From: Dethiobacter sp.
GTDB lineage: Bacteria; Bacillota; Dethiobacteria; Dethiobacterales; Dethiobacteraceae
NCBI GenBank assembly: GCA_018335875.1
Contig: JAGXRN010000067.1
Location: forward strand, 20,688-84,687
Length of the DNA: 64,000 nucleotides
Direction: 5' to 3'
The notes under the pieces were generated by a model. The model did no database searches. It saw only the letters and a list, made by a program, of their open reading frames with translations, and was not told where the DNA came from. The position numbers and the translations under genes are program-made. Shown in pieces: positions 5,684 through 53,833 of this stretch (position 1 is the first letter of the stretch; each line of letters opens with the position of its first letter).

Positions 5684-6123
5684 GAAAGTTCAGAGTTACT
5701 GTAAACGGACAACCCTATGATGTTCTCGTAGAGGAGTTTGGTGCGCCTGCAACAGCCACACCCACTTTTGTACCAACCGCCAGGCCTCCCGCGCCAATTC
5801 AGCCAGCTTCAGTCCCTAAATCCCCACCCCCGGCTCCTTTGGCAGCACCGCCAATGGCAGTAAAGCCGTCCCCGGCACCTCAGTCAAAACCGGTTCAGCC
5901 TGCGGGAGGGAGTACTGTCATTTCTGCGCCAATGCCCGGGGTTATTTTAAACGTACTTGTAAGCAGCGGGCAGTCGGTTAAAATAGGAGATGTTTTATTA
6001 ATTCTTGAAGCAATGAAAATGGAAAATGAGGTTACTGCGTCAACAGCAGGAGTGGTTAAAGAAGTTGCCGTCAGTAAAGGGAGCAACGTAAACACCGGTG
6101 ATTTGATGGTCGTCATAGAGTAA
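5680..6123 (+). CDS. Biotin carboxyl-carrier subunit (biotinyl domain with Pro/Ala linker)
   Basis: EAMKMENE biotinylation motif and a PA-rich linker. ATG at 5680 starts MRKFRVTVNG; the part of the ORF-track frame upstream of it is not coding. Confidence 0.85.
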   Translation: MRKFRVTVNGQPYDVLVEEFGAPATATPTFVPTARPPAPIQPASVPKSPPPAPLAAPPMAVKPSPAPQSKPVQPAGGSTVISAPMPGVILNVLVSSGQSVKIGDVLLILEAMKMENEVTASTAGVVKEVAVSKGSNVNTGDLMVVIE

Positions 6124-11145: not shown

Positions 11146-11292
11146 TATTTCACCTTCCAGCGGTATAATCCGTTTATTATCGCTGGCTTCATTATACAGG
11201 AAGAATTAGTTAAAGACAATAAAAAGGCACGCTGTGCCACCTTTAAACTGAGCAAGGGAAATGCTCATATTTTTTTGTCCATCTGTTTGACT

Positions 11293-11544
11293 TCAGAAAA
11301 TATTAAGCTCAAGCGCCTCAGACAACATGTCCTTTTTAAAGCCTACTATAACAGAGTCATTAACTGTGGTCACCGGTGCTGCTTTTTGTCCTGATATAAG
11401 CCACATTTCCTCGAAGGCGTTTCGGTCTTCAATGATATTGTATTCTTTGAATTCAAAGTTATGCTGTGAAAGGAACTCTTTCACCTCAAGGCACGACATT
11501 CAGAACTTTCCCGCTGCATAAACCGTAATCACGGGTTGAGACAT
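11293..11544 (-). CDS. Glutaredoxin/NrdH-like selenoprotein candidate (UxxC), in-frame TGA at 11500-11502
   Basis: RBS GGAGAG is followed by an ATG at 11544. Translation reads MSQPVITVYAAGKF-TGA-MSCLEVKEFLSQHNFEFKEYNI...APVTTVNDSVIVGF. This is a thioredoxin fold with TGA exactly at the first position of the CxxC motif. The ORF track sees only the part 3' of the TGA. Confidence 0.7.
11466..11484 (-). promoter_or_regulatory. SECIS-like hairpin for the glutaredoxin-like gene
   Basis: On the mRNA the hairpin is GUGAAAG-AGUUC-CUUUCAC. It is a 7-bp perfect stem that begins 15 nt after UGA, with G at the second loop position. Confidence 0.45.
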
Positions 11545-11577
11545 TTTCTATCACTCTCCGTAGTCGATTCTGTAACG

Positions 11578-11799
11578 CTACTTTTTGCGGGTTGGCCAAC
11601 CCAGCAAGTCAAGTAAAATTCAATAACGCGACACACCTTCAATTATAAGGAAAACGCCCAAGAGAACGGCAACTGCAGCACCAATATAACTGCCGGGAAA
11701 AACACGCAGCGCCCCCAAAGCGACGAGTATGCTGCCTGCTATGATGCGGATGGCCATATCAAGACGGCCGATATTGCGTTTTAAACGGAATAAATACAT
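11578..11799 (-). CDS. DUF2892 (YgaP-like TM domain) selenoprotein candidate, in-frame TGA at 11620-11622
   Basis: RBS GGGAGG lies 8 nt before the ATG at 11799. Translation reads MYLFRLKRNIGRLDMAIRIIAG...IIEGVSRY-TGA-ILLDLLGWPTRKK-TAG. The TGA sits where the family has its conserved Cys (..G.CPLY.LLG..T). Confidence 0.7.
11587..11605 (-). promoter_or_regulatory. SECIS-like hairpin for the DUF2892 gene
   Basis: On the mRNA the hairpin is GC-U(bulge)-GGGUU-GGCC-AACCC-GC. It begins 14 nt after UGA, has a loop starting GG and carries a bulged U. Confidence 0.55.
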
Positions 11800-11856: not shown

Positions 11857-12111
11857 CTATAGCATACTTAGAATGGCATACTTTACCGCCTGAAGCACCA
11901 CCCAGGCCAGCAGGGGGGAAAGATCGACCGGTAAAGAGGTTTTTGGCAATATCTTTCTGAAAGGTGCCAGCAGCGGCTCTGTGCCTTCGTAAAGCAGGCG
12001 TATCAGGGGACTTTTAGGATTGTGGGGAAGCCAAGATAATATAACGCGCGCTATTATCAGCCAAATGAGTAAATCAAAAAATAGTGCAATAATATTTGGC
12101 AGTTGTGACAC
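11857..12111 (-). CDS. YggT-family membrane protein
   Basis: 84 aa with two TM segments. The motifs ARVILSWLP and PLLAPFRKILP are typical of YggT/Ycf19. GTG start follows GGGAAGGAG, and an extended -10 (TGATACAAT) lies upstream. Confidence 0.85.
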   Translation of the reverse strand: MSQLPNIIALFFDLLIWLIIARVILSWLPHNPKSPLIRLLYEGTEPLLAPFRKILPKTSLPVDLSPLLAWVVLQAVKYAILSML

Positions 12112-12201: not shown

Positions 12202-12480
12202 TTATTGTGCGTCCCACGGCCCCGGGCAGGATACAGCGCTTAAGCTCCTGTGGTTAGAGGAGAAATGATAAATATTTTCCACCTCAGCCTGGCCTGAGGC
12301 TATAAGACGGGTGACTTTCTCAAGCCTGTCTAGGGGGAAACGGGCAGCGATGCCGCACGATGAAGAGATAATACGAGGCACAGGAATGAGTGTAACCGGC
12401 TCCTGTAGTGAATTCATCAGTTTTTCAAAGCGCAGGGCGTGGGAAACCGATGGAAATGAGGCAACGCAATATGTTTCCAA
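12202..12480 (-). CDS. DUF3343 protein (putative Se/S carrier, YedF C-terminal-like)
   Basis: FPSVSHALRFEKLM...LIPVPRIISSSCGIAARF matches the DUF3343 signature (PxPRxISSxCGxAxRF). Confidence 0.65.
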   Translation of the reverse strand: METYCVASFPSVSHALRFEKLMNSLQEPVTLIPVPRIISSSCGIAARFPLDRLEKVTRLIASGQAEVENIYHFSSNHRSLSAVSCPGPWDAQ

Positions 12481-12496: not shown

Positions 12497-12721
12497 TTAT
12501 TTTTGTTTTATACTGATAATAAAATGAGTTTCCTTTTCCTCAACAGCAAAAGTATATCCGGAATTTTTCGCAAAGCGGCTGATATTCTCCACAGACACCT
12601 TGCTGTCGGATAAAATAGTCATACTGCCGGTGGATATTTTGCCCAGAAAGTCCTTTGTCCTGACAACGGGCTCAGGGCAGGATAGGCCGCGTACATCGAG
12701 GACTTCACTCTTAGACGTCAT
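12497..12721 (-). CDS. TusA/SirA-like sulfur(selenium)transferase (YedF N-terminal-like)
   Basis: LDVRGLSCPEPVVRTK carries the CPxP active-site motif. Length is 74 aa. It overlaps the yedE 3' end by 11 nt. Confidence 0.85.
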   Translation of the reverse strand: MTSKSEVLDVRGLSCPEPVVRTKDFLGKISTGSMTILSDSKVSVENISRFAKNSGYTFAVEEKETHFIISIKQK

Positions 12722-13802
12722 AGGAAACCTCTCCTTTTAAAGGAACTTTAATTTTGGGTAAAACAGCAGTGAAACCAATACTTAAAAGGAACATAAAACC
12801 AAGGACAACTCCCCATTTTCCATTGGGCGTGGCGCCTGCAGCACTCGAAGCCAGCCCGAAGTTGTGGGCGAATGCCGCACCCACGAGCATCCCCAGGAAA
12901 GACATGCCTGCATCGGCGTCACCCTCACCTGCCATCACTGTCTGACGCAGAGGGCACCCTCCAAGCAAGGTTGAACCCAGTCCCACCAAAGCCAGGCCCA
13001 GGAAATTCCAGATGCCGTCTGTGTGCGCCACGGGCTGTGAGCTAAAGCCAAGCCTGAAATAGCCAAAGCCAAGGTTAAAGATAAGGGCGGTGATAAAAAT
13101 AGCCAGTGAGCCGTAGAGAAGATGAGGGTCTTTTAAAAGAAACAGATCACGGAAGCAGCCTGCCTGGCAGAGCCTGCTGCGCTGAACAACTATTCCTATG
13201 AGCAGCCCTGCGGCAAGAGAGACAGCGAAAGGGGCTCGAAAAGAGCCGGGACCGCTTTCACTGAAAAATATAAATGCCGGTGCAACCACTGCCAGTAAAA
13301 CCAAGATAATTGCTACGGCAGGGATGGAGAGGCCGTTGGCACGGACCAGATTGACGGAGCGTCCAAGCGAAAATCCCCGCCGCAGGAAAAAGACGCCTGC
13401 AAAAATCCCGGCAATAAATCCAAAGAGTCCGACAAGAGCATTAAGGTCGCCTGCTGAGAGTCGAAGCAGCATGCGCAGCGGGCAGCCCAAAAAAACGAGT
13501 GCTCCAATCATGACAGTGAATCCCAGCAGGAAACGAAGCATAGGGGAGGAGCCGCCGCGGGCGCGAAACTCGCCTGTAAATAGAGATATCAGGAAGGAAC
13601 CAAGAATAAAGCCGGATATTTCAGGCCTCAAATATTGGACTGCTGCGGTACGGTGCAGTCCCAATCCACCCGCTATATCGCGGTAAAAGCATGCCACACA
13701 TACTCCCATGTTGGCAGGATTGCCAAATTTAACAAGCACTACGCCAAGCAATCCCAAAAAAACGCCGGAACAAACTATGAGCCGCCTTTCCAAACAGATC
13801 AC
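12711..13802 (-). CDS. yedE: YedE/YeeE-family membrane protein (selenium/thiosulfate-related transporter)
   Basis: 363-aa polytopic protein. It has GNPANMGVCVACFYRDIAG near the N-terminus and a second Cys motif (RLCQAGCFRD). Confidence 0.85.
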   Translation of the reverse strand: MICLERRLIVCSGVFLGLLGVVLVKFGNPANMGVCVACFYRDIAGGLGLHRTAAVQYLRPEISGFILGSFLISLFTGEFRARGGSSPMLRFLLGFTVMIGALVFLGCPLRMLLRLSAGDLNALVGLFGFIAGIFAGVFFLRRGFSLGRSVNLVRANGLSIPAVAIILVLLAVVAPAFIFFSESGPGSFRAPFAVSLAAGLLIGIVVQRSRLCQAGCFRDLFLLKDPHLLYGSLAIFITALIFNLGFGYFRLGFSSQPVAHTDGIWNFLGLALVGLGSTLLGGCPLRQTVMAGEGDADAGMSFLGMLVGAAFAHNFGLASSAAGATPNGKWGVVLGFMFLLSIGFTAVLPKIKVPLKGEVSYDV

Positions 13803-13896: not shown

Positions 13897-13977
13897 AAGA
13901 TAAGGAACAAAGATTCAAAAATTCATGCAGGAATTCTACCCTGCCATGTGAAAATACTCGCACAGGAGAGTGAAAAA

Positions 13978-14889
13978 ATGGAGTTTTATCAGCTTGAAGC
14001 TTTTGTAATGGTGGTATCTCAGCGCTCATTTTCACGGGCTGCCGATATGCTCTATCTCAGCCAACCTACTGTGAGCGCTCATGTGAAGAGTCTGGAAAAC
14101 ACGCTGGGCACTGCTTTGTTCGACCGCGGCAAAGGGGAGATAATGCTTACGCCGGCAGGAGAAACACTTTACCGTTATGCCTGTGATATGCTTGATTTGA
14201 GAAAAAAAACTATCTGCGAGATCAGTGAGAAAAAAGTTAGCGCTGAAGTCCTGACAATGGCAGCCTCGTCAGTGCCCTGCCAGTATTTTTTACCAGGCGC
14301 CATAGCACGGTTTGAAAAAAAAATCCCCACTGCCACCGTGTGCCTTAAACAGGAAAACTCCCGCCGTGTTTGCGAAAGTGTGTTTAACTATCAGTACCCG
14401 CTTGGAGTAGTCGGAGAAAGACACAATCTGCCGCGGCTGGCCTATGTTCCTTTGATGGAAGATATTTTGGTGGCGGCAATCCCCAATCGTGAAGAATATA
14501 AAAGTGTTCTGGCACGAAAAGAATTGTCGGTTGAAGATCTGACAGAATTCAGGCTTCTCCTGCGGGAGCCCGGTTCAGGCACACGCTCTTTGCTGGAAAA
14601 AGAACTGCAGCGCGTGGGGGTGGGCTTGGGCCGCTTTCGTATCAGCATTTATGAAAGCCAGGAGACTATTAAGCAGGCTGTTAGACAGGGCCTTGGCGTT
14701 ACAGTAATTTCGCGCTTTGTGGTGGAAGACTATGAACAGTTCGGCTTATTGTCAACCCGTCCCTTAAGAGGGCTTGAGCTTGCGCGCCGGTTTTCTCTTG
14801 TCTACCATGACAAGCGTGTGCTATCCAATGCGGGCAGGGAACTGCGCCGGTTTTTGATATCTTTTTTTACAGCTGAGGAGGAGAAATAA
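13978..14889 (+). CDS. LysR-family transcriptional regulator
   Basis: MEFYQLEAFVMVVSQRSFSRAADMLYLSQPTVSAHVKSLE is an HTH. The ATG at 13978 follows GGAGAG. Confidence 0.9.
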   Translation: MEFYQLEAFVMVVSQRSFSRAADMLYLSQPTVSAHVKSLENTLGTALFDRGKGEIMLTPAGETLYRYACDMLDLRKKTICEISEKKVSAEVLTMAASSVPCQYFLPGAIARFEKKIPTATVCLKQENSRRVCESVFNYQYPLGVVGERHNLPRLAYVPLMEDILVAAIPNREEYKSVLARKELSVEDLTEFRLLLREPGSGTRSLLEKELQRVGVGLGRFRISIYESQETIKQAVRQGLGVTVISRFVVEDYEQFGLLSTRPLRGLELARRFSLVYHDKRVLSNAGRELRRFLISFFTAEEEK

Positions 14890-16046
14890 TGCGCGAAATC
14901 TATGCCGACCATGCAGCTACCACTTTCCCCCGCCCGCCTGCAGTGGCTGCTGCTATGACAGCTTACCTCAATAACATCGGCTGCAGTCCCGGGCGGGGAG
15001 GCTATAAAAGGTCTCTCGATGCCGCCAGGCTTGTCTATGAATCCAGGTCCCGCCTGGCGGAGTTGTTTAATGCCGCCCGCCCGGAGCAGGTGATATTTAC
15101 TCCCAGCGTTACCTACTCGCTAAACCTGTTGCTGAAAGGCCTGCTGCGCACTGGCGATCATGTGTTGGTTTCTTCTGTAGAACACAACTCAGTTGTCCGC
15201 CCCCTGTCACGCCTGGCGGGCGAACTTGAGCTCCAAGTTGAATTCCTCCAGTGCAACCCGGACTCATCCCTCGACCCGCTACAGGTGAAGAAAAAACTGC
15301 GGCCCAGTACAAGACTTGTGATTCTTACCCACGCCTCAAATGTCACCGGGGCGCTGCTGCCGGTCTATGAAACAGGGGAAATACTGGCTGGGACTGACAC
15401 TTTCTATGCCGTTGATGCGGCACAAACTGCCGGTAGTGAAGAAGTTGACTTTGCTGCTCTGCGCTGTGACTACCTGGCCTTTACCGGCCATAAAGGATTG
15501 CTTGGCCCGCCGGGAATCGGGGGCATGTGCATCAGTGAACGTGCAGCCGAGATTACAGAGCCTTTGGTAGAAGGGGGGACAGGCAGCCGCTCCGAACAGG
15601 AGCGCCAACCCGGCTTTCTGCCGGATAAATTTGAGAGCGGCACACAAAACGTGCCTGGAATTGCCGGTTTGAATGCCGGAGTTTTGACTGTACTTGATGC
15701 TGGAACAGAAGCTTTGGGCAGGCAAAAACGAGAGCTGACAGAGCGTTTCCGGCAGGGGCTTGCGCAAATCCCCGGCATCAAAGTTTACGGACCCACTGAC
15801 GCCGCCGCGACAACGGCTACAATATCTGTCAGCATAGAAGGTATGGACAGCGGAGATCTCAGCTTTATACTCGATCAGGCATACGGTATCATGACACGCT
15901 CCGGGCTCCACTGCGCTCCTTACGCCCACCGCACCTTGGGCACATTCCCCGCAGGTACGCTTCGTTTCTCATTCGGTTATGGCAGCACCCAGCTGGACGT
16001 GACAGAAATTCTTGCTGCACTAAAGGAAATAACAACCGCCAGGTAA
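14889..16046 (+). CDS. Class-V aminotransferase: cysteine desulfurase / selenocysteine lyase family
   Basis: THASNVTG, the PLP lysine in FTGHKGLLGPPGIG, and the active-site Cys in RSGLHCAP. It is translationally coupled to the LysR gene (TAATG). Confidence 0.85.
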   Translation: MREIYADHAATTFPRPPAVAAAMTAYLNNIGCSPGRGGYKRSLDAARLVYESRSRLAELFNAARPEQVIFTPSVTYSLNLLLKGLLRTGDHVLVSSVEHNSVVRPLSRLAGELELQVEFLQCNPDSSLDPLQVKKKLRPSTRLVILTHASNVTGALLPVYETGEILAGTDTFYAVDAAQTAGSEEVDFAALRCDYLAFTGHKGLLGPPGIGGMCISERAAEITEPLVEGGTGSRSEQERQPGFLPDKFESGTQNVPGIAGLNAGVLTVLDAGTEALGRQKRELTERFRQGLAQIPGIKVYGPTDAAATTATISVSIEGMDSGDLSFILDQAYGIMTRSGLHCAPYAHRTLGTFPAGTLRFSFGYGSTQLDVTEILAALKEITTAR

Positions 16047-16863: not shown

Positions 16864-16914
16864 ACCTATTCACTGCGCTCTGAAAAGGAAAATATTAATA
16901 GCAGGATATTAAGA

Positions 16915-17067
16915 ATTTGGGAGAGACCGTAATGATTAGCGGTCGCCGAAGGATAAATTCAGCTGTGCTGAAAAATCTCTCAGGTCTCAAGGGCAGGGCA
17001 GAATTTACCTCCATAGTACATTGTAAATAGTGTGCAATGGTGAACTCTGGAACTGTCTTTTGTTTTG
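16915..17067 (+). promoter_or_regulatory. Single glycine-riboswitch-like aptamer plus degenerate terminator (duplicate of aptamer 2 of the downstream tandem)
   Basis: GGGAGAGACC...CGCCGAAGGA...CTCTCAGGT...GGCAG core. By eye it is about 75-80% identical to 17394-17540, including the expression platform. Confidence 0.6.
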
Positions 17068-17284: not shown

Positions 17285-17536
17285 ACCGGATGAGGATTGT
17301 GGGAGAGACCTTTAAGTATACACTTAAGGGCACCGAAGGGGCAAAGTCGCTGACTGAAACTCTCAGGTAAAAGTACCGCATTCTGACGGAGCTCTGGAGA
17401 GACCGTGCTGCTTAGCGGTCACCGAAGGAGAAATTCAGCATGCTGAAGAATCTCTCAGGTCAAAGGACAGAGAAGAATTTACCGCTAAAGTACATATTAT
17501 TGGTGTGCAGAGGTAAATTCTGAGACTGTCTTTTTG
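17285..17536 (+). promoter_or_regulatory. Tandem glycine riboswitch with terminator expression platform
   Basis: Aptamer 1 reads GGGAGAGACC..CACCGAAGGGGCAA..CTCTCAGGTAAAAGTAC. Aptamer 2 reads CTGGAGAGACC..CACCGAAGGAG..CTCTCAGGTCAAAGGACAG. A long imperfect terminator follows (GACAGAGAAGAATTTACC / GGTAAATTCTGAGACTGTC + TTTTT), and its 5' arm overlaps the 3' end of aptamer 2. Confidence 0.85.
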
Positions 17537-17640: not shown

Positions 17641-18399
17641 GTGTTCCGGTCGAGGAGAGTATTAAAAAAACGCGGAGGAGTGAATATATTGGCTGAAGAA
17701 ATTTTAAGAATTGCTAATGAGTTTGGAGTTTGGGTTATTGCTGCCATCCTGGTAAGCTTGGTTGCAGTACAATCAATAATGTATGTTAAGCTTGCTTATG
17801 CTGCAGCCGACAAGATTGGCATGAGCCAAGCAACCTGTAAGACTGCTTTCAGGACAGGTCTTATCACTGCCATCGGTCCTGTAATAGCAATCTTTATTAT
17901 CATGGTTGGCATGATGTCGGTTATTGGAGGCCCCATGAGTTGGATGAGATTATCAATTATCGGCGCCGCCCCGACAGAATTAACCGCAGCCCGGGTAGGC
18001 GCAGAAGCTTATGGCGTTGGGTTTGGCTCACCGGAATACGACATGATGGCGCTGGCAACTTCATGGTGGACAATGGCCATAAATGGCGTGGGCTGGCTGC
18101 TCCTGGTGGGGCTTTTCAGCCATAAACTGGAAACTCTCAGAGATGTTATCGGGGGCGGAAATGCAAAATGGCTGGCAATGCTAAGCGGCGCCGCCATGCT
18201 TGGAGTTTTTGGCTATCTCAATTCAGGCGATGTAGTAGCGGGAGGGGCAAGGCTTGTTGCTGTAATTGTGGGCGGAATTTCCATGGTCCTAATGGTTACA
18301 GTCGTTATAAAAAAAGTCCCTGCGCTTAAGGAGTATTCACTTGGTATAGCCATGCTGATCGGCATGTTTGGGGCTGTAATTGTCAGCTTAATGAGTTAA
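17641..18399 (+). CDS. Uncharacterised polytopic membrane protein A (about 6 TM)
   Basis: Hydrophobic and Gly/Ala-rich. It is the first gene after the glycine riboswitch. The start is uncertain; TTG at 17689 lies 8 nt after GGAGGAG. Confidence 0.75.
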   Translation: MFRSRRVLKKRGGVNILAEEILRIANEFGVWVIAAILVSLVAVQSIMYVKLAYAAADKIGMSQATCKTAFRTGLITAIGPVIAIFIIMVGMMSVIGGPMSWMRLSIIGAAPTELTAARVGAEAYGVGFGSPEYDMMALATSWWTMAINGVGWLLLVGLFSHKLETLRDVIGGGNAKWLAMLSGAAMLGVFGYLNSGDVVAGGARLVAVIVGGISMVLMVTVVIKKVPALKEYSLGIAMLIGMFGAVIVSLMS

Positions 18400-18421
18400 A
18401 TTATAACTTGGAGGTGAAGTT

Positions 18422-19099
18422 ATGTCAGATAAAAATTTTAACATGGATAAAGACTGGAGAGCGCCGGCGATAAAGCTTGGCATGATTACTCTGTTGCTTG
18501 CCTCAGTTTTGTCTTTTCTGCCCGTTATATATTTATACCTGGTTCATGGAGTGATTCCGCCGGTATCACTGATGTTAAAATCCTGGGGGATGATTGCACT
18601 ACTTTTTGGCGCTTTTTATATCGTTGAGCCTGTTTCATATTACGCAGTTCTGGGCCTTGCCGGAACATACATGTCATTTTTGTCAGGAAACATTTCCAAC
18701 CTTCGTTTACCCTGCGCTGCCATGGCCCTGGATGTCACAGAGACAGAGCCCGGGACCAAAGAGGCGGAGGTAGTATCTACACTTGGTATTGCCGGCTCAA
18801 TCATTACAAACCTGATAGGTGTGACATTGGCCGCGTTTATCGGCACTGCCTTAATCAGGGTTTTCCCGCCGGTAATTGCCAATGCTTTCAGGACATATAC
18901 AGTTCCTGCTATTTTCGGGGCCGTCTTTGGCCAGTTTGCCATTAAATATCCGAAGCTGGCAATTGTTGGTTTTGCCATACCGGTGGGCCTCAGGTTATTT
19001 ACCACCCTGCCTGTGTGGGTATTAATTGCCGCTTCCGTTCTTGGCACAATTGCCGTGGCAAAACTAATATTCAGCAGGGAAACTCCTGCTTCCGTCTAA
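18422..19099 (+). CDS. Uncharacterised polytopic membrane protein B (about 6 TM)
   Basis: ATG follows GGAGGTG. The protein is hydrophobic, and the gene is tightly linked to gene A. Confidence 0.75.
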   Translation: MSDKNFNMDKDWRAPAIKLGMITLLLASVLSFLPVIYLYLVHGVIPPVSLMLKSWGMIALLFGAFYIVEPVSYYAVLGLAGTYMSFLSGNISNLRLPCAAMALDVTETEPGTKEAEVVSTLGIAGSIITNLIGVTLAAFIGTALIRVFPPVIANAFRTYTVPAIFGAVFGQFAIKYPKLAIVGFAIPVGLRLFTTLPVWVLIAASVLGTIAVAKLIFSRETPASV

Positions 19100-19109
19100 T
19101 AACCAAAAA

Positions 19110-19140
19110 AAGACCTAGAGCCTTATTGGCTCTAGGTCTT
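19110..19140 (+). other. 13-bp perfect hairpin inside the operon
   Basis: AAGACCTAGAGCC-TTATT-GGCTCTAGGTCTT. An A-run precedes it and only TTT follows, so it may be a partial terminator or a stabiliser. Confidence 0.5.
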
Positions 19141-19185
19141 TAACCAAATCAAATAGCAGCCAATTTAATTATAAAGGAGGTAATA

Positions 19186-20379
19186 ATGTTGATTAATGTG
19201 GTGGAAGAGGCCAAAAAAATTCAGGCAGAGTTAATCAGTTGGCGCAGGGAACTTCATCAATTTCCGGAAGTAGGCCTTGAATTACCCGAGACAGCTGCTT
19301 ATGTATCTAAAAAACTAACAGAGCTTGGCATTGAGCACAAAACAGGGATTGGGGTTTCCGGTATTGTCGGCCTGATCAGGGGGAAAGAGGAAGGCAAAAC
19401 AATTGCAATCAGGGCGGACATGGACGGTCTGGCTATTAAAGAAGAAACAGGCCTGCCCTTTGCCTCCCAAAACGGAAATATGCATGCGTGCGGACACGAT
19501 GCCCACACATCGATGCTTCTTGGTGTAGCTAAAATTTTAAATGAAAATAAGGACAAGTTAAAAGGCAACATTAAGCTTCTTTTCCAGGCGGCAGAAGAAG
19601 GCCCTGGAGGAGCTAAGCCAATGATTGACGACGGCGCAATGGAAAATCCCCGGGTAGACGCTGTCATCGGCCTGCATATAGGGACAATCTTCAAAGAAAT
19701 TGGCCCTGGTGTTGTTGGTGTAGCTTACGGCAACCTGATGGCGTGTCTTGACAGGTTTGACATAAAAGTTATCGGCAAGGGATGTCACGGCGCCATGCCG
19801 GATACAGGAATAGACCCCATTGTTATGGCTGCCCAGGTAGTTAACGCCCTGCAAACTATTGTCAGCAGGGAAATTAAACCGACTGAACCTGCTGTGGTAA
19901 CTATCGGAGAAATCCATGGCGGCAGGTCATACAACATCATTCCCGACGCTGTTGATATAGTGGGGACGGCGCGGGCGACCAGCCAGGATGTCAGGGAGAA
20001 AATAGCTTCCCGGATGGAAGAGATAGTGGCCTCTGTTACCAAAGCAATGAGGGGAAGCTACGAGTTTAATTACACTTTCGGCTATCCTCCATTGGTAAAC
20101 GATGCAGGCTTTACTAAAGGCTTTGTTGAAACTGCCAAAAAAATTGTGGGGGAAGAAAAGATATTTGAGATCACCAAGCCTACCATGGGCGGTGAAGACA
20201 TGGCTTTCTTTTTGGAAAAAGTGCCGGGCACATTCTTCTTTCTTGGTGGAGGGAACGAAAGCAAAGGGATCGTTACCCCACATCACAATTCCAAATTTGA
20301 TGTTGACGAAGACGTATTTTGGATCGGAACTGCCCTCCTCGCACAGGGCGCAGTAGACTGGCTGGAAAAAAACTCCTAG
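19186..20379 (+). CDS. M20D amidohydrolase (N-acyl-amino-acid / hippurate hydrolase family)
   Basis: WRRELHQFPE, ACGHDAH, GGAKPMIDDG and GGEDMAFF motifs. Confidence 0.9.
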   Translation: MLINVVEEAKKIQAELISWRRELHQFPEVGLELPETAAYVSKKLTELGIEHKTGIGVSGIVGLIRGKEEGKTIAIRADMDGLAIKEETGLPFASQNGNMHACGHDAHTSMLLGVAKILNENKDKLKGNIKLLFQAAEEGPGGAKPMIDDGAMENPRVDAVIGLHIGTIFKEIGPGVVGVAYGNLMACLDRFDIKVIGKGCHGAMPDTGIDPIVMAAQVVNALQTIVSREIKPTEPAVVTIGEIHGGRSYNIIPDAVDIVGTARATSQDVREKIASRMEEIVASVTKAMRGSYEFNYTFGYPPLVNDAGFTKGFVETAKKIVGEEKIFEITKPTMGGEDMAFFLEKVPGTFFFLGGGNESKGIVTPHHNSKFDVDEDVFWIGTALLAQGAVDWLEKNS

Positions 20380-20402
20380 TAGTATAACAGGAGGGATGTA
20401 TA

Positions 20403-21647
20403 TTGAAAATCGCAGATAAAGTCAGCAAAAACAGGATCGAGAATCAGATTAAAACACTGGCACAAATAGGCGCCACCGGTGAAGGCGGCATTACACGTCT
20501 GCCATATACAAAAGACGAGCGAGCTGCTGTTGCTTTGGTTAAAAGCTATATGGAAGAAGCAGGCCTTCAAACATTCTTCGATCAGTTCGGTAACTTATTC
20601 GGTAAATTAGAAGGCAAAAGTACTGAAGCTCCTGTTGTCATGACAGGCTCCCATGTTGATACTGTAATAAACGGCGGCGCTTTTGACGGGGTTATAGGCA
20701 CCCTTGGCGCCATCGAAGCGTTGAGAGTTATCAGGGAAAACAATATACCTCATGTTCACACTCTGGAGGCGTGTGTCTTTGTTTCCGAAGAACCTGTAAG
20801 ATTTCGGGCGGGCACATTAGGCAGCAAAGCTGCCATCGGAGACTTTACACAAAGTGATTTGGACAGACTTAAGGATAAAGATAACATAAGCTTAGCGCAG
20901 GCAATTAAGGAGTGTGGCTTTAATCCTGAACAATTGGAAAGTGTAAGAAGGGATCCGGCAAAAATAAAGTGTTTTGTGGAACTGCATATTGAACAAAGCA
21001 TTATTCTTGAGACAAAGAAACTGCCAATTGGTGTGGTAGACCAAATAGCCGCCCCAACTAACTTCCGGTTGACATTAAAAGGGAAGGCCGGGCACGCCGG
21101 GGCCACCCCTATGAACATGCGCAATGATGCTTTTATGGCTGCGGCAGAAATCGCGCTCGAAATTGAAAGAATTGCAATCACCATAGGAAAGGAAGCAGTT
21201 GGCACTGTGGGGGAAGTTAAAGTTATACCAAACGCTATAAATGTTATCCCAGGCGAGGTGATACTGGGGATTGATGTAAGGGATGTTACCTCAAAAAGAA
21301 AAGATGAAGCAATCGCGGAAATAGAAAAGTCGATCAACAACATCGCCGCCAGAAGAAATATAGAAGCTGTGATTGAGATCATTCAAAAGCAGGAACCCGT
21401 TAAAACTTCTCCTCAGATTGTAGACATTATTTCATCCACCTGCAACGAACTTGGACTGCCCTGGTGCAACATAACAAGCGGTGCGTATCATGATGCCTTA
21501 AATATGGCTAAGATTACAGACATAGGTATGATTTTTATTCCCAGTGCCGGTGGCATAAGCCATGCAAAAGAGGAATTCAGCAGTATTGATGATATTTACC
21601 AGGGTGCACGGGTGCTGGCAGAAGTTTTGGTGAAACTGGCCTCCTGA
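20403..21647 (+). CDS. M20 Zn-hydrolase (N-carbamoyl-L-amino-acid / allantoate amidohydrolase family)
   Basis: GITRLPYT, GSHVDTVINGGAFDGVIG, GHAGATPM and SGAYHDA motifs. TTG start. Confidence 0.85.
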   Translation: MKIADKVSKNRIENQIKTLAQIGATGEGGITRLPYTKDERAAVALVKSYMEEAGLQTFFDQFGNLFGKLEGKSTEAPVVMTGSHVDTVINGGAFDGVIGTLGAIEALRVIRENNIPHVHTLEACVFVSEEPVRFRAGTLGSKAAIGDFTQSDLDRLKDKDNISLAQAIKECGFNPEQLESVRRDPAKIKCFVELHIEQSIILETKKLPIGVVDQIAAPTNFRLTLKGKAGHAGATPMNMRNDAFMAAAEIALEIERIAITIGKEAVGTVGEVKVIPNAINVIPGEVILGIDVRDVTSKRKDEAIAEIEKSINNIAARRNIEAVIEIIQKQEPVKTSPQIVDIISSTCNELGLPWCNITSGAYHDALNMAKITDIGMIFIPSAGGISHAKEEFSSIDDIYQGARVLAEVLVKLAS

Positions 21648-21744: not shown

Positions 21745-21970
21745 ATGAATCTGGCGGGAGAGGCCCAATCTTGGGACACCGAAGGAGAAACCTTTATGGC
21801 ATGGCAGTCTGGAGGGAAACTCTCAGGTATAAGTACCGGCAGGGGACGCGTCCCTGGAGAGAGCCCGCTTAACGTGGGACACCAAAGGGGTAATGCCCGG
21901 ATATCCGGGTTAATCTCTCAGGTAAAAAGGACAGGGGAAACGGCCGGTTGGTTGTTTTCCCTGTTTTTTT
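21745..21970 (+). promoter_or_regulatory. Tandem glycine riboswitch upstream of gcvT
   Basis: Aptamer 1 reads GGCGGGAGAGGCC..CACCGAAGGAG..CTCTCAGGTATAAGTAC. Aptamer 2 reads CTGGAGAGAGCC..CACCAAAGGGGTAA..CTCTCAGGTAAAAAGGACAG. The terminator is ACAGGGGAAA / TTTTCCCTGT + T7. Confidence 0.85.
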
Positions 21971-21999: not shown

Positions 22000-23103
22000 A
22001 TGTCACTCAGGAGAACGCCTTTTTATGGGAAACATATCGAGTTGAAAGGAAAGATGGTGGATTTCCTCGGTTGGTCGCTGCCTGTGCAATATGAAGGGAT
22101 TATTGCAGAAGTGCAAAAAGTAAGGCAAAGCGCCGGTATTTTTGACGTTTCCCATATGGGAGAAATTCTGGTCGAAGGCAAAGGTGCGCTTCCTTTTCTA
22201 CAGAAAATTGCTACAAACGATATCTCCCGCCTGAAGGCACACGGGATCATGTACAGCCCTGTCTGCTATAGCAGTGGTGGTACAGTGGATGATATCTTAA
22301 TCTACTGCTATAATCCTGAAAAATACCTGCTTGTTGTCAACGCGAGCAACGCCCAGAAAGATTTGGCCTGGCTAAAAGAGCACTGCAGCGGGATTGTCAC
22401 TGTCCGTGACATCTCTGAAGACATAGCACAAATCGCGCTGCAGGGGCCAAACAGCCTGGAAATACTGCTTTCACTCACAGATAAGTCGCTGGCAGTGTTG
22501 AAGTATTATACTTTTGTCCCTGAGGCAAGGGTAGCCGGCATTAAATGCCTGATATCACGGACCGGCTATACAGGCGAGGATGGGTTTGAAGTCTACTGCC
22601 AGGCAAGTGAAGCACGGGAACTGTGGGGTGAAATATGGAGCGCAGGCGGGGAAGACGGATTAGGGCTTGCTGCTGCAGGCCTTGGCGCGCGGGATATACT
22701 GCGTCTGGAGGCCGCGCTGCCCCTCTACGGCCATGAACTCACGGCAGATATTACACCCCTCGACGCCGGTCTCGACAGGTTTGTATCCTTTACAAAAGGG
22801 ATAAACTTTATTGGAAGGGGTGCATTAGTTAAACAAAAAGAGGAAGGCACTCTGAAAAGACTGTGCGGTCTTGAGATGTTGGAAAGGGGCATCGCACGGG
22901 AAGGCTACAGTGTAAGAGCGCAGGAGGAGGAAGTAGGTTGGGTGAGCAGTGGTTCTTATTCACCCACGCTGGACAAAGCAGTGGCTCTGGCGTTTTTAAA
23001 TCCTGAGCATGCACCTCTTGGAAATCAGGTTCAGGTTGTTATCCGGGGCAGGGAATACAATGCACGGGTTGTTAAAATACCTTTTTACAGGAGGGAAAAA
23101 TAA
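22000..23103 (+). CDS. gcvT: Glycine cleavage system T protein (aminomethyltransferase)
   Basis: RRTPFY, FDVSHMGE and RTGYTGEDGFE motifs. Confidence 0.95.
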   Translation: MSLRRTPFYGKHIELKGKMVDFLGWSLPVQYEGIIAEVQKVRQSAGIFDVSHMGEILVEGKGALPFLQKIATNDISRLKAHGIMYSPVCYSSGGTVDDILIYCYNPEKYLLVVNASNAQKDLAWLKEHCSGIVTVRDISEDIAQIALQGPNSLEILLSLTDKSLAVLKYYTFVPEARVAGIKCLISRTGYTGEDGFEVYCQASEARELWGEIWSAGGEDGLGLAAAGLGARDILRLEAALPLYGHELTADITPLDAGLDRFVSFTKGINFIGRGALVKQKEEGTLKRLCGLEMLERGIAREGYSVRAQEEEVGWVSSGSYSPTLDKAVALAFLNPEHAPLGNQVQVVIRGREYNARVVKIPFYRREK

Positions 23104-23510
23104 TGAAGTGGCAGGTACCTGATGGCGTATTATTTACACGTAAGCACGAGTGGGTGAGACAGGAAGAGGGAAATACCGTAGCGGTAGGTATTTCCGACTA
23201 TGCCCAGGATAAACTGGGAAGTATTGTTTTTGTTGAACTGCCTGAGATAGGGCGGGAGCTGAAGGCCCTTGAAGCAATGGCCGTAATAGAGTCTGTGAAA
23301 GCAGTGGCTGACACCTACTCACCGGTCGACGGCACAGTCGTGGAAGTAAATGAAGAGGTTCTGGACCAACCGGAGCTGTTGAACCAGGATCCTTACGGTG
23401 CAGGTTGGATGGTGAAGATAGAGCTCAAAGCAGGATATGTGTTTAGCGGCCTTTTGAACTCTCAGGAATACAAAGATCTTCTCCTGCAGGAGGAGGATGG
23501 TGCAGAGTGA
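23103..23510 (+). CDS. gcvH: Glycine cleavage system H protein
   Basis: Lipoyl-lysine motif ESVKAV, plus GISDYAQ. Confidence 0.95.
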   Translation: MKWQVPDGVLFTRKHEWVRQEEGNTVAVGISDYAQDKLGSIVFVELPEIGRELKALEAMAVIESVKAVADTYSPVDGTVVEVNEEVLDQPELLNQDPYGAGWMVKIELKAGYVFSGLLNSQEYKDLLLQEEDGAE

Positions 23511-53585: not shown

Positions 53586-53833
53586 TTTAAAAACAAAAAA
53601 CCCTTTTCACTCCATAGAGACGAAAAGGGTAATCCGCGGTACCACTCTAATTGGCATAGTATGCCCACTTAAGCCCGTAACGAGGGAATGCGGCCAGGTC
53701 TACTCGTTTCCTTTCGGCTGGCACTCCGGGGTGAGTTTCAGTCAGGATCTAGGGCCGCCTCACACCTACCCGGCGGCTCTCTGTTTCCTAATGCCGGACT
53801 TACTGTCCCCGTCATCGTTTTAAATATTAATTA
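53586..53833 (-). promoter_or_regulatory. T-box riboswitch leader, CUC (Leu) specifier
   Basis: All elements are on the minus strand. There is an AGAGAG box. The specifier loop reads GAAA-CUC-A, with CUC at 53733-53735. The T-box sequence is AATTAGAGTGGTACCGCGG (53634-53652). The terminator is ACCCTTTTC / GAAAAGGGT + T6 (53595-53630). Confidence 0.85.

What the first reader, a model, noticed from the sequence alone, without database searches (positions are those of the whole stretch)
11293..11544. Glutaredoxin/NrdH-like protein with a UxxC redox motif, hidden by ORF calling
The ORF track starts this gene at MSCLEVKEF..., but 45 nt upstream there is an RBS (GGAGAG) and an ATG. That ATG opens MSQPVITVYAAGKF, followed by TGA in frame with MSC. 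Together they form the beta1-loop-alpha1 of a thioredoxin fold, with TGA at the first redox position (U-M-S-C). A perfect 7-bp hairpin (GUGAAAG-AGUUC-CUUUCAC) starts 15 nt after the UGA. Glutaredoxin-like UxxC selenoproteins are known in anaerobes. The new point is that this one lies directly downstream of the DUF2892 Sec gene and inside the YedE island.
Basis: partly seen in the sequence, partly recalled or inferred. Interest (0 to 1): 0.65.

Follow-up and report, generated by a model that had tools for sequence, protein, structure and literature searches.

The report
Miscalled selenocysteine glutaredoxin in selenium operon
This is a real but mis-annotated gene for a small glutaredoxin-type redox protein whose active-site residue is selenocysteine encoded by UGA; that kind of protein is already known, and the only new point is that it sits at the end of a selenium-uptake operon next to a second selenoprotein gene.

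Summary
An SD-like GGAGAG and an ATG (11544) open 14 codons. They run in frame into TGA (11502-11500), then Met-Ser-Cys and the called 68-aa ORF.

Read through, the 83-aa product matches Pfam Glutaredoxin from profile position 1. It has U15-x-x-C18 where homologues have CxxC.

- All 8 distinct orthologues keep the TGA, the upstream peptide (PxITV[YF]SAG[KR][YF]) and the hairpin.
- Upstream codons vary mainly at third positions.
- Hairpin stem codons are frozen: 5 of 6 hairpin codons, against 2 of 28 elsewhere.
- The same UxxC-plus-hairpin arrangement occurs in at least 120 species genomes of many phyla, always in a Grx-like gene. Its two outer stem pairs covary.
- The best solved relative (44% identity) is Clostridium oremlandii Grx1, a native selenoprotein.

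So this is a new member of a known, experimentally verified family, hidden by ORF calling. It is not NrdH or YruB by curated cut-offs.

The link to the DUF2892-Sec gene and the YedE/TusA/DUF3343 operon under a selenium-type LysR is real, but restricted to one Dethiobacter-like clade. Its functional meaning is inferred. Sec machinery in the same genome could not be checked.

The parts
11554..11559 (-). Shine-Dalgarno-like GGAGAG, 9 nt before the true start codon
   Evidence: Read directly from the sequence. All orthologues have a GGAGG/GGGGG-type motif about 5-10 nt before their start codon.
11293..11544 (-). Full coding sequence of the 83-aa glutaredoxin-fold selenoprotein (MSQPVITVYAAGKF-U-MSC...NIF), including the terminal TGA stop at 11295-11293
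   Evidence: Translation. Pfam PF00462 scores 39.6 bits over profile positions 1-60. Full-length conservation in 8 orthologues. PDB 7c10 E = 9.7e-12.
11503..11544 (-). N-terminal 14 codons missed by ORF calling (beta1 strand and the loop before the active site)
   Evidence: The peptide is conserved in 8 orthologues. Variable columns by codon position are 4, 5 and 11 of 11. It aligns to beta1 of Cys homologues.
11500..11502 (-). In-frame UGA read as selenocysteine (U15), the first residue of the U-M-S-C redox motif
   Evidence: TGA in 8 of 8 orthologues and in all 120 wider family loci. It aligns with the first Cys of CxxC.
11491..11493 (-). TGC codon for the resolving cysteine C18 of the UxxC motif
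   Evidence: Invariant Cys, with TGC/TGT synonymous variation.
11466..11484 (-). SECIS hairpin: 7-bp stem GUGAAAG/CUUUCAC with apical loop AGUUC; it also encodes V-K-E-F-L-S-(Q)
   Evidence: MFE is -8.7 kcal/mol. Stem codons are invariant in 8 orthologues. The same core occurs in at least 120 genomes, and the outer pairs covary.
11226..11238 (-). Terminator-like hairpin GGCAC-AGC-GUGCC followed by UUUUUAUU; probable end of the operon
   Evidence: Consensus scan. A consensus match only.
11578..11799 (-). Upstream neighbour: 73-aa YgaP-like/DUF2892 membrane protein with its own Sec codon (TGA 11622-11620) and its own hairpin GGGUUGGCCAACCC (11602-11589)
   Evidence: Translation and Pfam PF11127 at 53.3 bits. 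TGA and hairpin are conserved in 7 of 8 orthologous loci and in about 60 other Bacillota genomes.
11857..12111 (-). YGGT-family small membrane protein
   Evidence: Pfam PF02325, 76.9 bits.
12202..12480 (-). DUF3343 / putative Se/S carrier protein
   Evidence: Pfam PF11823, 72.2 bits.
12497..12721 (-). TusA/SirA-like (short YedF-like) sulfur/selenium carrier
   Evidence: Pfam PF01206, 63.3 bits. TIGR03527 YedF scores 61.8 bits, below its cut-off of 110.
12711..13802 (-). YedE-family putative selenium transporter, first gene of the operon
   Evidence: TIGR04112 seleno_YedE scores 490 bits against a cut-off of 200. A promoter-like site lies at 13860-13832.
13948..14889 (+). Divergently transcribed selenium-metabolism-associated LysR regulator
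   Evidence: NF040786 LysR_Sec_metab scores 278.7 bits against a cut-off of 250.
14889..16046 (+). Cysteine desulfurase / selenocysteine-lyase-like PLP enzyme
   Evidence: TIGR01977 scores 428.8 bits (cut-off 377). SclA NF040779 scores 387 bits, below its cut-off of 525.

Best explanation
The gene at 11544-11293 (minus strand) encodes an 83-residue thioredoxin-fold, glutaredoxin-family oxidoreductase. Its catalytic residue is selenocysteine.

Shown:
- Translation must start at the ATG at 11544 and pass the UGA at 11502-11500, because the 14 upstream codons evolve as coding sequence.
- The UGA is invariant in orthologues and sits where homologues have the first Cys of CxxC.
- A 7-bp hairpin 15 nt downstream is held constant at synonymous sites and covaries across a very large family.

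Inferred from the established bacterial mechanism: SelB carrying Sec-tRNA(Sec) binds that hairpin (the SECIS) while the ribosome is at the UGA, and inserts Sec instead of terminating.

Inferred from the fold and from characterised C. oremlandii Grx1: U15 attacks a disulfide or selenosulfide in a partner. C18 then resolves the mixed bond into an internal selenenylsulfide, which a reductase system re-reduces.

Inferred from context only: the gene is the last cistron of a LysR(Se)-controlled operon, YedE-TusA-DUF3343-YGGT-DUF2892(Sec)-Grx(Sec). Its most likely clients are therefore the selenium- or sulfur-carrying proteins of that operon, first of all the adjacent membrane DUF2892 selenoprotein.

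I put the selenoprotein identity at about 0.9 and the operon-specific role at about 0.4.
For: Sequence and product:
- Anatomy is as described.
- Pfam Glutaredoxin covers profile positions 1-60 only when the extension is included (39.6 against 33.6 bits).
- All 8 distinct orthologues have TGA in the same column. The flanks are conserved while the two middle residues vary freely: MS, GP, GG, GQ, KQ, GS, GA.
- In the 11 codons before the TGA, 4, 5 and 11 of 11 columns vary at codon positions 1, 2 and 3.

Hairpin:
- The V-K-E-L-S codons use one codon in all 8 sequences. That is 5 of 6 hairpin codons, against 2 of 28 elsewhere (Fisher p = 4e-4). Only the loop Phe codon varies.
- It meets the published bSECIS constraints (PMC13188914): a 5-nt loop with G at position 2 followed by U, a 7-bp stem, 22 nt from the UGA to the loop, and -8.7 kcal/mol.
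- The pattern TGA-N6-TGY-N9-AAAGAGTTYCTTTC occurs in at least 120 species genomes, every time in a Grx-like gene with beta1...U-xx-C...KEFLS.
- In 126 sequences the outer pairs are CG 60, UA 40, AU 7, GC 2 and GC 71, GU 11, AU 9, UA 2. None of 500 shuffles reaches the observed covariation.

Known relatives and genetic code:
- The best solved relative is 7c10, C. oremlandii Grx1 Sec-to-Cys (E = 9.7e-12; 44% identity). It is a native selenoprotein with a U/CPHC motif.
- TGA is an ordinary stop for 10 of 37 long open frames in the window, and for this gene itself, so the recoding is local.

Context:
- YedE TIGR04112 scores 490 bits, LysR_Sec_metab 278.7 bits, plus a SclA-like enzyme.
- Gene order is conserved in orthologous loci.
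- Promoter-like and terminator-like sites bracket the operon.
Against: - No selA, selB, selC or selD was found in the 64-kb window. I could not search the rest of the source genome, so Sec-decoding capacity is inferred, not shown.
- There are no transcript, peptide or 75Se data.
- The five inner stem pairs never vary, so they say nothing about structure. In the wide alignment four of them were fixed by my own search pattern.
- On the operon-specific role: none of the 120 other Grx-Sec loci has YedE, TusA, DUF3343, YGGT or DUF2892 nearby.
- Two orthologous loci lack YedE and TusA at the site, and one has lost DUF2892, yet all keep the Grx gene.
- The 8 loci are so closely related that unrelated flanking genes (HutP, a Y-family polymerase, a GDSL lipase) are syntenic too.
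Confidence: 0.85

Rival explanations
1. Co-regulation rather than co-function. The protein is a general thiol/selenol-disulfide reductase like other Grx selenoproteins, for example a reductant of MsrA-type enzymes. It lies in the selenium-uptake operon only so that a selenium-requiring gene is expressed when selenium is being imported and sensed by the LysR(Se) regulator.
For: The wider Grx-Sec family shows no link to selenium-handling genes: 0 of 120 loci. DUF2892-Sec genes elsewhere in Bacillota have no recurrent neighbour. The Grx gene is kept where YedE/TusA or DUF2892 are missing. Characterised cGrx1 serves MsrA (PMC7642778). LysR_Se-type regulators are proposed to control selenoprotein and Cys-isoform expression (PMC5322559).
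Against: In all 8 loci the gene stays at the 3' end of the DUF3343-YGGT(-DUF2892) unit, 33 nt after DUF2892-Sec in the window, with no internal terminator of note. No MsrA or other obvious client gene is nearby.
Confidence: 0.4
2. The called 68-aa ORF is the real product. The UGA terminates a 14-codon leader peptide, and ribosomes re-initiate at the abutting AUG (UGA-AUG). No selenocysteine is inserted.
For: In the window the stop and the next ATG are directly adjacent (TTC TGA ATG), as in translational coupling. Gene callers produce this model, and it is what public databases hold.
Against: Only the window sequence has ATG after the TGA. The 7 other orthologues have GGA, GGT, GGG, AAA or GGC there, so the arrangement is not conserved. 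The 68-aa product would lack beta1 and the catalytic residue of the fold. The leader evolves under protein-level constraint and is homologous to beta1 of Grx.
Confidence: 0.03
3. A decaying gene: a nonsense mutation in a former Cys codon (TGC/TGT to TGA) has made a pseudogene.
For: TGA is one step from TGC or TGT. Nothing else supports this.
Against: The same TGA is present in 8 of 8 orthologues at 59-76% protein identity and in at least 120 family members of many phyla, never TAA or TAG. There are no frameshifts, and purifying selection acts on both sides.
Confidence: 0.01
4. The hairpin is a by-product of a conserved peptide (VKEFLSQ) plus codon preference, not an RNA element. UGA read-through, if any, is SECIS-independent, through near-cognate tRNA giving Cys or Trp.
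For: KEFL is also common in Cys-containing homologues. The single-sequence fold is not significantly stable.
Against: Elsewhere in the gene, synonymous sites vary in 26 of 28 invariant-residue codons, but they are frozen in the stem. In the wide family the wobble base of the Ser codon covaries with the second base of the codon before Lys, which peptide conservation cannot explain: Ala GCG with TCG, Val GTG with TCA, Glu GAG with TCT, Gly GGG with TCC. Ser-Gln/His after KEFL is typical of the TGA forms, not of the Cys forms.
Confidence: 0.04

Closest known systems
Selenoprotein glutaredoxin 1 (cGrx1) of Clostridium (Alkaliphilus) oremlandii OhILAs. It represents the 'Glutaredoxin (Grx), PF00462, UxxC' family listed as experimentally verified in PMC13188914 and PMC9312934; structure 7c10 is the Sec-to-Cys form.
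   Same: Same fold and size. Sec is at the first position of UxxC, directly after beta1. Identity is 44% over 66 residues (E = 9.7e-12 against the PDB). VKEFLS is identical after the motif, and close relatives of cGrx1 (e.g. L091) carry the same hairpin core AAAGAGUUUCUUUC at the same distance from the UGA.
   Different: The motif is U-M-S-C rather than U-P-H-C. The beta1-to-active-site loop is one residue longer (AGKF against SNT). The genomic partner is a selenium-uptake operon, whereas cGrx1's functional partner is the selenoprotein MsrA. The reductant is unknown here.
YruB-family and NrdH-type glutaredoxin-like proteins (TIGR02196, TIGR02194), Cys forms; for example the Clostridium neonatale gene in L003
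   Same: About 75-85 aa, CxxC after beta1, an APV/VPV cis-Pro region and a V/I-G-F motif. YruB is the best-scoring NCBIfam model (60.6 bits). Identity to Clostridium homologues is 30-40%.
   Different: Scores are below both curated cut-offs (88.55 and 85.75). The CVQC and WSGFRP signatures of NrdH are absent and there is no nrd operon. These proteins use Cys, not Sec. By my reading of the upstream ORF, the Clostridium gene follows a thioredoxin-reductase-like gene rather than selenium genes.
UXX-star glutaredoxin-like selenoproteins (NF041212, NF041114, NF041211)
   Same: Small Grx-like selenoproteins that NCBI models recognise; there is weak similarity (35.5 bits).
   Different: In those families Sec sits three residues from the C terminus. 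Here it is at the N-terminal active site. All scores are far below the cut-offs.
Consensus bacterial SECIS model (bSECISearch; PMC13188914 Fig. 2 legend)
   Same: All four constraints are met: a 3-9 nt apical loop and a 4-16 bp stem, G in the first two loop positions followed by U, 16-37 nt between UGA and loop (22 here), and MFE of -7.5 kcal/mol or lower (-8.7 here).
   Different: In the window the loop-closing A and C cannot pair, so the loop is 5 nt. In 115 of 126 family members an A-U pair closes a GUU triloop.
YedE / YedF / DUF3343 / LysR_Se selenium-metabolism gene set (Lin et al. 2015, PMC5322559)
   Same: YedE, a TusA/SirA-like carrier, DUF3343, a LysR_Se regulator and a Sec-lyase-like enzyme are clustered as that paper describes.
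   Different: That paper mentions neither a glutaredoxin nor a thioredoxin, and no paper in the library holds both 'DUF2892' and 'selenocysteine'. Two selenoprotein genes and a YGGT gene appended to the cluster are not part of the described set.

Membership tests
Bacterial selenoprotein gene (UGA recoded as Sec) | In-frame UGA aligned with a Cys in homologues | tested here: met
   The TGA column aligns with the first Cys of CPDC (Clostridium neonatale) and of CPHC (7c10).
Bacterial selenoprotein gene (UGA recoded as Sec) | Protein-coding conservation on both sides of the UGA, and conservation of the UGA itself | tested here: met
   TGA in 8 of 8 orthologues and in 120 of 120 wider loci. Upstream variable columns by codon position are 4, 5 and 11 of 11.
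Bacterial selenoprotein gene (UGA recoded as Sec) | [quoted passage not shown] | tested here: met
   Loop AGUUC, 7-bp stem, 22 nt, -8.7 kcal/mol. Stem codons are frozen. The outer pairs covary.
Bacterial selenoprotein gene (UGA recoded as Sec) | selA, selB, selC (tRNA-Sec) and selD present in the same genome | not testable with these tools
   None lie in the 64-kb window: no tRNA and no SelA/B/D-like ORF among those scanned. Indirect support comes from LysR_Sec_metab, seleno_YedE and a second UGA+hairpin gene in the same operon.
Bacterial selenoprotein gene (UGA recoded as Sec) | Selenium actually incorporated (75Se labelling or mass spectrometry) | not testable with these tools
   Needs an experiment.
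Glutaredoxin family (Pfam PF00462) | Score above the Pfam gathering threshold over the whole domain | tested here: met
   39.6 bits against 22.9, profile positions 1-60 of 60, with U replaced by C.
Glutaredoxin family (Pfam PF00462) | C/UxxC at the start of helix 1 after beta1, plus the cis-Pro loop | tested here: met
   The residue-by-residue alignment with the solved 7c10 covers query residues 7-80. U15/C18 align with CPHC, and A-A-P-V with A-V-P-V. No model of this protein itself could be built.
Glutaredoxin family (Pfam PF00462) | Glutathione-dependent reduction | not testable with these tools
   Biochemical. The CPYC motif and the GG-type glutathione-binding motif are absent (VGF instead), so the reductant is open.
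YruB-family glutaredoxin-like protein (TIGR02196) | Score at or above the curated cut-off (88.55 bits) | tested here: not met
   60.6 bits. Best-scoring model, but below the cut-off.
NrdH-redoxin (TIGR02194 / NF007657) | Score at or above the cut-off | tested here: not met
   44.9 bits against 85.75 (TIGR02194) and 18.8 bits against 131 (NF007657).
NrdH-redoxin (TIGR02194 / NF007657) | CVQC and WSGFRP motifs | tested here: not met
   The motifs here are UMSC and VGFKKD; the family signatures themselves are quoted from memory.
NrdH-redoxin (TIGR02194 / NF007657) | nrdIEF genes nearby | tested here: not met
   No nrd genes are among the neighbours.
UXX-star Grx-like selenoproteins (NF041212, NF041114, NF041211) | Sec three residues before the C terminus; score at or above the cut-off | tested here: not met
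   Sec is residue 15 of 83. Scores are 35.5, 19 and 23.4 bits against cut-offs of 66, 72 and 100.
YedE-type selenium-uptake/trafficking cluster | seleno_YedE transporter and the selenium-associated LysR above their curated cut-offs, with a TusA/SirA-like carrier and DUF3343 | tested here: met
   TIGR04112 at 490 bits (cut-off 200); NF040786 at 278.7 (cut-off 250); PF01206 and PF11823 above their thresholds. The long YedF model TIGR03527 is not met, at 61.8 against 110.
YedE-type selenium-uptake/trafficking cluster | The Grx gene is a functional component of the cluster | tested here: inconclusive
   It is co-oriented, closely spaced and conserved in 8 loci, but these come from one clade with general synteny. 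There is no such link in 120 other Grx-Sec loci.

The most novel reading that the evidence does not exclude
In this Dethiobacter-like clade, two selenoproteins have been recruited to the end of the LysR(Se)-controlled YedE-TusA-DUF3343 operon: a two-helix membrane DUF2892 protein with Sec near its C terminus, and this soluble UxxC glutaredoxin. On this reading they form a selenol-based relay that reduces or hands on imported selenium. Selenium acquisition would then itself depend on selenoproteins, a feed-forward loop. In addition, DUF2892-Sec, found here in about 60 Bacillota species, is absent from the 2026 review's table of prokaryotic selenoprotein families and may be undescribed.
Probability: 0.25. 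Interest if true: 0.6.

Novelty: new member of a known kind. Interest (0 to 1): 0.35.

Why it matters
For annotation, this is a clear case of a general error. All eight protein clusters of this subfamily in a 5.8-billion-protein collection are stored as truncated products of 60-68 aa, including a RefSeq-style 'glutaredoxin family protein' of Dethiobacter alkaliphilus. Many other database entries of 60-69 aa that begin at (M/V)(A)KEFLS look like the same artefact.

The shared hairpin core AAAGAGUUYCUUUC, at a fixed distance from a UxxC motif, is a simple and very specific signature for repairing these genes.

For biology, the Grx itself adds little, because Sec-glutaredoxins are known and one has been characterised. 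What is worth a follow-up is the operon: two selenoprotein genes appended to a putative selenium importer/carrier set under a selenium-type LysR regulator. This gives a concrete, testable candidate for the missing redox step between YedE-mediated uptake and selenophosphate synthesis.

Tried and rejected
- Rfam: no family matches the region, either at gathering thresholds or at E up to 10. Rfam has no model for this element.
- ARAGORN: no tRNA or tRNA-Sec in the window.
- Sec machinery in the window: ten large ORFs of SelA/SelB/SelD-like size turned out to be MiaB, MutL, MiaA, an AAA ATPase, HflX, a Met gamma-lyase-like enzyme, GlnA, adenine deaminase, a GGDEF-HD protein and a decarboxylase.
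- Glycine reductase as evidence of Sec use: the glycine riboswitches precede glycine-cleavage and transporter/peptidase genes, not grd genes.
The translation contains a stop. The U-to-C sequence and alignment A1 are not exact window sequences. I used the alignment to solved structure 7c10 instead.
- The exhaustive representative search could only be run with the truncated 68-aa product.
- Kim et al. 2011 (PMC3062254), the primary paper on selenoprotein Grx1, is not held. I relied on PMC7642778 and two reviews.
- A literature search for Dethiobacter plus selenocysteine gave nothing useful.
- Recurrent neighbours of DUF2892-Sec in other Bacillota: none found.
- NrdH and YruB membership was considered and rejected on curated cut-offs.
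- Alternative genetic code: rejected, because TGA ends 10 of 37 long frames in the window and this gene itself.
- Both GTDB scans for the subfamily returned only two species genomes. The D. alkaliphilus assembly carrying it (GCA_025989135.1) came only through the protein look-up.
Full report
**1. What is in the sequence**

On the minus strand the region reads GGAGAG (11559-11554), 9 nt, then ATG (11544-11542). Thirteen more codons follow (SQPVITVYAAGKF), then TGA (11502-11500), ATG TCG TGC (M-S-C), and the remainder of the ORF that the ORF list calls as 68 aa (11499-11293).

The new ATG is 45 nt upstream of the called one. The hairpin GUGAAAG-AGUUC-CUUUCAC occupies 11484-11466 and begins 15 nt after the UGA.

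On its own the hairpin is not statistically unusual. Its z-score is -1.3 in a 66-nt context and -1.98 for the 27-nt core, and 6 of 200 shuffles fold as well. The case therefore has to rest on comparative evidence.

**2. The read-through product is a complete glutaredoxin fold**

With U replaced by C, the 83-aa product matches Pfam Glutaredoxin (PF00462) over profile positions 1-60 of 60 at 39.6 bits. The called 68-aa product matches only from profile position 12, at 33.6 bits.

The best NCBIfam models are the YruB-family Grx-like protein (60.6 bits) and NrdH (44.9 bits). Both are below their curated cut-offs of 88.55 and 85.75. The UXX-star selenoprotein models are far below theirs.

Against solved structures the best hit is 7c10, 'Glutaredoxin', 84 aa, E = 9.7e-12. 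The alignment runs from the beta1 strand (query residue 7) through the CxxC and an identical VKEFLS stretch to residue 80. Identity is 44% over 66 residues.

The paper describing these structures says that C. oremlandii Grx1 is a native selenoprotein with a U(or C)PXC active site. Its catalytic Sec was replaced by Cys for crystallography, and it is the proposed reductant of the selenoprotein MsrA (PMC7642778). The deposited sequences match that paper's dithiol CPHC form and its C16S variant.

Two reviews list 'Glutaredoxin (Grx), PF00462, UxxC' among the experimentally verified prokaryotic selenoprotein families (PMC13188914 and PMC9312934). Grx with UXXC was already reported in the Sargasso Sea selenoproteome (PMC1088965).

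**3. Orthologues**

A search of 5.8 billion proteins returned only eight clusters, all 60-68 aa. All but the window's own begin at (M/V)KEFLSQ, that is, after the UxxC motif. One is annotated 'glutaredoxin family protein [Dethiobacter alkaliphilus]'.

I fetched the DNA of all of them and extended each frame upstream. Every one of the 8 distinct sequences has an in-frame TGA in the same column. Each TGA is preceded by a start codon with an SD-like motif and the peptide (P)xITV[YF]SAG[KR][YF], and followed by x-x-C.

The two residues between U and C vary freely (MS, GP, GG, GQ, KQ, GS, GA), while U and C never change.

In the 11 codons before the TGA, 4, 5 and 11 of 11 columns vary at codon positions 1, 2 and 3. 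This is the signature of a translated sequence under purifying selection.

A Cys homologue from Clostridium neonatale (MIKIYSTSWCPDC..., 33% identity) aligns its first Cys with the TGA.

**4. The hairpin is under RNA-level selection**

Within the 8 orthologues, 34 codon columns hold an invariant amino acid with a degenerate codon.

- Outside the hairpin, 26 of 28 such columns use two or more synonymous codons.
- Inside the hairpin, Val, Lys, Glu, Leu and Ser use one codon each in all eight sequences (GTG AAA GAG ... CTT TCA).
- Only the Phe codon, which lies in the apical loop, varies (TTC/TTT).
- This is 5 of 6 against 2 of 28, Fisher p = 4e-4.

The element fulfils all four constraints of the published bacterial SECIS model (PMC13188914 Fig. 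2 legend):

| Constraint | Model | Window hairpin |
|---|---|---|
| Apical loop | 3-9 nt | 5 nt (AGUUC) |
| Upper stem | 4-16 bp | 7 bp |
| G in the first two loop positions, usually followed by G or U | required | A-G-U-U-C |
| UGA to apical loop | 16-37 nt | 22 nt |
| MFE | -7.5 kcal/mol or lower | -8.7 kcal/mol |

**5. The same device in a very large family**

An exhaustive profile-free search with the 68-aa product showed many other 60-69 aa proteins that begin at (M/V)(A)KEFLS. One of them, read at the DNA level, is M-A-A-E-E-I-K-V-Y-S-T-P-T-U-P-Y-C-K-M-A-K-E-F-L-S-Q with the same hairpin core.

I then scanned one genome per species (GTDB) for TGA-N6-TGY-N9-AAAGAGTTYCTTTC. My estimate of the chance expectation is a handful of hits.

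All 120 encode a Grx-like protein with beta1, U-x-x-C and KEFLS. They come from Burkholderiales, Acidobacteriota, Rokubacteria/Methylomirabilota, Chloroflexota, Binatia, Deltaproteobacteria, Nitrospinaceae, Verrucomicrobia, Alphaproteobacteria, Clostridia and Bacilli.

The pattern fixed four of the five inner stem pairs, and the fifth (G21-C35) never varies, so those five say nothing. The two outer pairs were free:

- In 126 distinct sequences, pair 20-36 is CG 60, UA 40, AU 7, GC 2 (87% paired, 49 double changes).
- Pair 19-37 is GC 71, GU 11, AU 9, UA 2.
- None of 500 column shuffles reaches the observed covariation score or the observed percentage of cells paired, and sliding the 3' partner destroys the signal.

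The covarying bases are the second base of the codon before Lys (an amino-acid-changing position: Ala GCG, Val GTG, Glu GAG, Gly GGG) and the wobble base of the Ser codon (TCG, TCA, TCT, TCC). Peptide conservation cannot produce that pattern.

The window's hairpin is therefore a member of a phylogenetically broad SECIS class whose outer stem pairs are supported by covariation.

**6. Local recoding, not a changed code**

TGA terminates 10 of the 37 open frames of at least 250 codons in the window. It also terminates this gene itself (CTT AAT ATT TTC TGA).

No tRNA gene and no SelA/B/D-like ORF lies in the 64 kb. I could not examine the rest of the source genome. This is the main untested link.

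**7. Context**

The gene is the last of six co-oriented genes:

- YedE (12711-13802; TIGR04112, 490 bits against a cut-off of 200), which overlaps TusA by 11 nt
- a TusA/SirA-like carrier (12497-12721)
- DUF3343, 'Se/S carrier' (12202-12480)
- YGGT (11857-12111)
- DUF2892 (11578-11799)
- the Grx gene

Gaps between the genes are 16, 90, 57 and 33 nt. A promoter-like site precedes YedE (13860-13832), and a terminator-like hairpin with a U-run follows the Grx gene (11238-11226). Both are consensus matches only.

Divergently transcribed are a LysR regulator that passes the curated model 'selenium metabolism-associated LysR' (278.7 bits against 250) and a cysteine-desulfurase-family enzyme close to selenocysteine lyase SclA (387 bits, below its cut-off of 525).

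The DUF2892 gene has its own in-frame TGA (11622-11620), at ...SRY-U-ILLDLLGWPT. A hairpin GGGUUGGCCAACCC (11602-11589) follows 17 nt downstream. Both are conserved in 7 of the 8 orthologous loci.

The gene order LysR | (YedE-TusA)-DUF3343-YGGT-DUF2892-Grx recurs in all orthologous loci, with these exceptions:

- Two loci lack YedE and TusA at the site (L002/L014 and L011).
- One (L011) has lost DUF2892 except for a remnant of its hairpin.
- The Grx gene is retained in each.

**8. How much the context means**

The eight loci belong to one clade: Dethiobacter alkaliphilus, serpentinite-site Clostridiales/Bacillota MAGs, and JGI metagenomes. Unrelated flanking genes (HutP, a Y-family polymerase, a GDSL lipase, a VanW protein) are syntenic too. 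Conserved order is therefore largely inherited, and it is not independent evidence of functional coupling.

Outside the clade the two selenoprotein genes go their own ways.

- None of the 120 other Grx-Sec loci has YedE, TusA, DUF3343, YGGT or DUF2892 within the fetched flanks.
- The roughly 60 other DUF2892-Sec loci are mostly from Desulfosporosinus, Sporomusa, Syntrophomonadaceae and Peptococcaceae. They have neither those genes nor any recurrent neighbour.
- Lin et al. 2015, who defined the YedE/YedF/DUF3343/LysR_Se set, mention no glutaredoxin or thioredoxin.

The operon is thus a clade-specific assembly of two widespread selenoprotein genes onto a known selenium-handling cluster.

**9. 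Mechanism**

Shown: the gene must be translated from 11544 through the UGA, and a conserved SECIS-type hairpin whose outer pairs covary sits at the canonical distance.

Inferred from the established bacterial pathway: SelB with Sec-tRNA(Sec) binds the hairpin and decodes the UGA as Sec.

Inferred from the fold and from cGrx1: U15 is the attacking nucleophile, C18 resolves the mixed bond to an internal selenenylsulfide, and an external reductase regenerates the protein. Which reductase is open. The protein lacks the CPYC and GG-type glutathione-binding signatures and resembles thioredoxin-reductase-dependent YruB/NrdH-type proteins. That resemblance is recalled from general knowledge and was not tested.

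Inferred from context: its clients are the Se/S carriers of its own operon, most plausibly the adjacent DUF2892 selenoprotein.

The main functional rival is that the gene is merely co-regulated with selenium supply. I rate the two readings about equal.

**10. Verdict**

The gene is a new member, a distinct AGK[YF]-U-x-x-C subfamily, of a known and experimentally verified selenoprotein family, and it is systematically truncated in public annotation.

It is not an NrdH or a YruB equivalog by curated thresholds. The novelty lies only in the operon association, which is real but narrow and of unproven functional meaning.

Noticed in passing
window 11578-11799 (-); TGA 11622-11620; hairpin 11602-11589; loci L169-L233: The DUF2892/YgaP-like membrane protein upstream is itself a UGA-containing gene (...[GA]Y-U-hhYDLMGWSTR). 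Its conserved hairpin GGGUUGG(U/C)CAACCC encodes G-W-S-T. The same TGA-plus-hairpin occurs in 65 GTDB species genomes, about 60 of them clear DUF2892 genes, mostly anaerobic Bacillota. PF11127/DUF2892/YgaP does not appear in the 2026 review's table of prokaryotic selenoprotein families. No NCBIfam model matched, and no paper in the library pairs DUF2892 with selenocysteine. It may be an undescribed family.
   Followed up: partly
proteins P0009, P0014, P0018, P0024, P0030-P0033, P0037, P0038, P0041, P0045, P0047, P0056; locus L048 175-222: Many database 'glutaredoxins' of 60-69 aa (P0014 and P0037 are longer) begin at (M/V)(A)KEFLS or, like the window's, right after the UGA (MFC..., MAC...). 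They look like N-terminally truncated UxxC selenoproteins. The one checked at the DNA level (L048) has an upstream ATG...YSTPT-TGA-CCC-TAT-TGC and the same hairpin core.
   Followed up: partly
alignment A2, columns 19-37 (window 11484-11466): The SECIS constrains the protein. The 3' arm CUUUC-N-C imposes Leu-Ser-(Gln/His/Arg...) after KEF. The Ser wobble base also covaries with the residue before Lys: Ala with TCG, Val with TCA, Glu with TCT, Gly with TCC. Cys-containing relatives have KEFL followed by D, K, Q or R instead of S.
   Followed up: partly
L011 about 5835-5990 (and L012): In one orthologous locus the DUF2892 gene is deleted, and only its 3' end with the hairpin (CTGGGTTGGTCAACCCGGAAAG) survives upstream of an intact Grx-Sec gene. 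The same locus also lacks YedE and TusA.
   Followed up: partly
window 16908-16999, 17290-17388, 21745-21848, 21852-21936 (+): There are four glycine riboswitch aptamers. Two single ones precede membrane-protein and amidohydrolase/peptidase-like ORFs (17641-21647). A tandem pair precedes ORFs that I read by eye as the glycine-cleavage genes gcvT, gcvH, gcvPA and gcvPB (22000-26313).
   Followed up: no
window 53613-53824 (-): A T-box leader (118.9 bits) lies upstream of the long minus-strand ORF that ends at 52001, presumably an aminoacyl-tRNA synthetase or amino-acid gene. It was not examined.
   Followed up: no
GTDB scans: Only two species-representative genomes carry this Grx subfamily. The Dethiobacter alkaliphilus assembly that has it (GCA_025989135.1, L009) did not appear in either scan, so the species representative may lack the locus or the region.
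   Followed up: no
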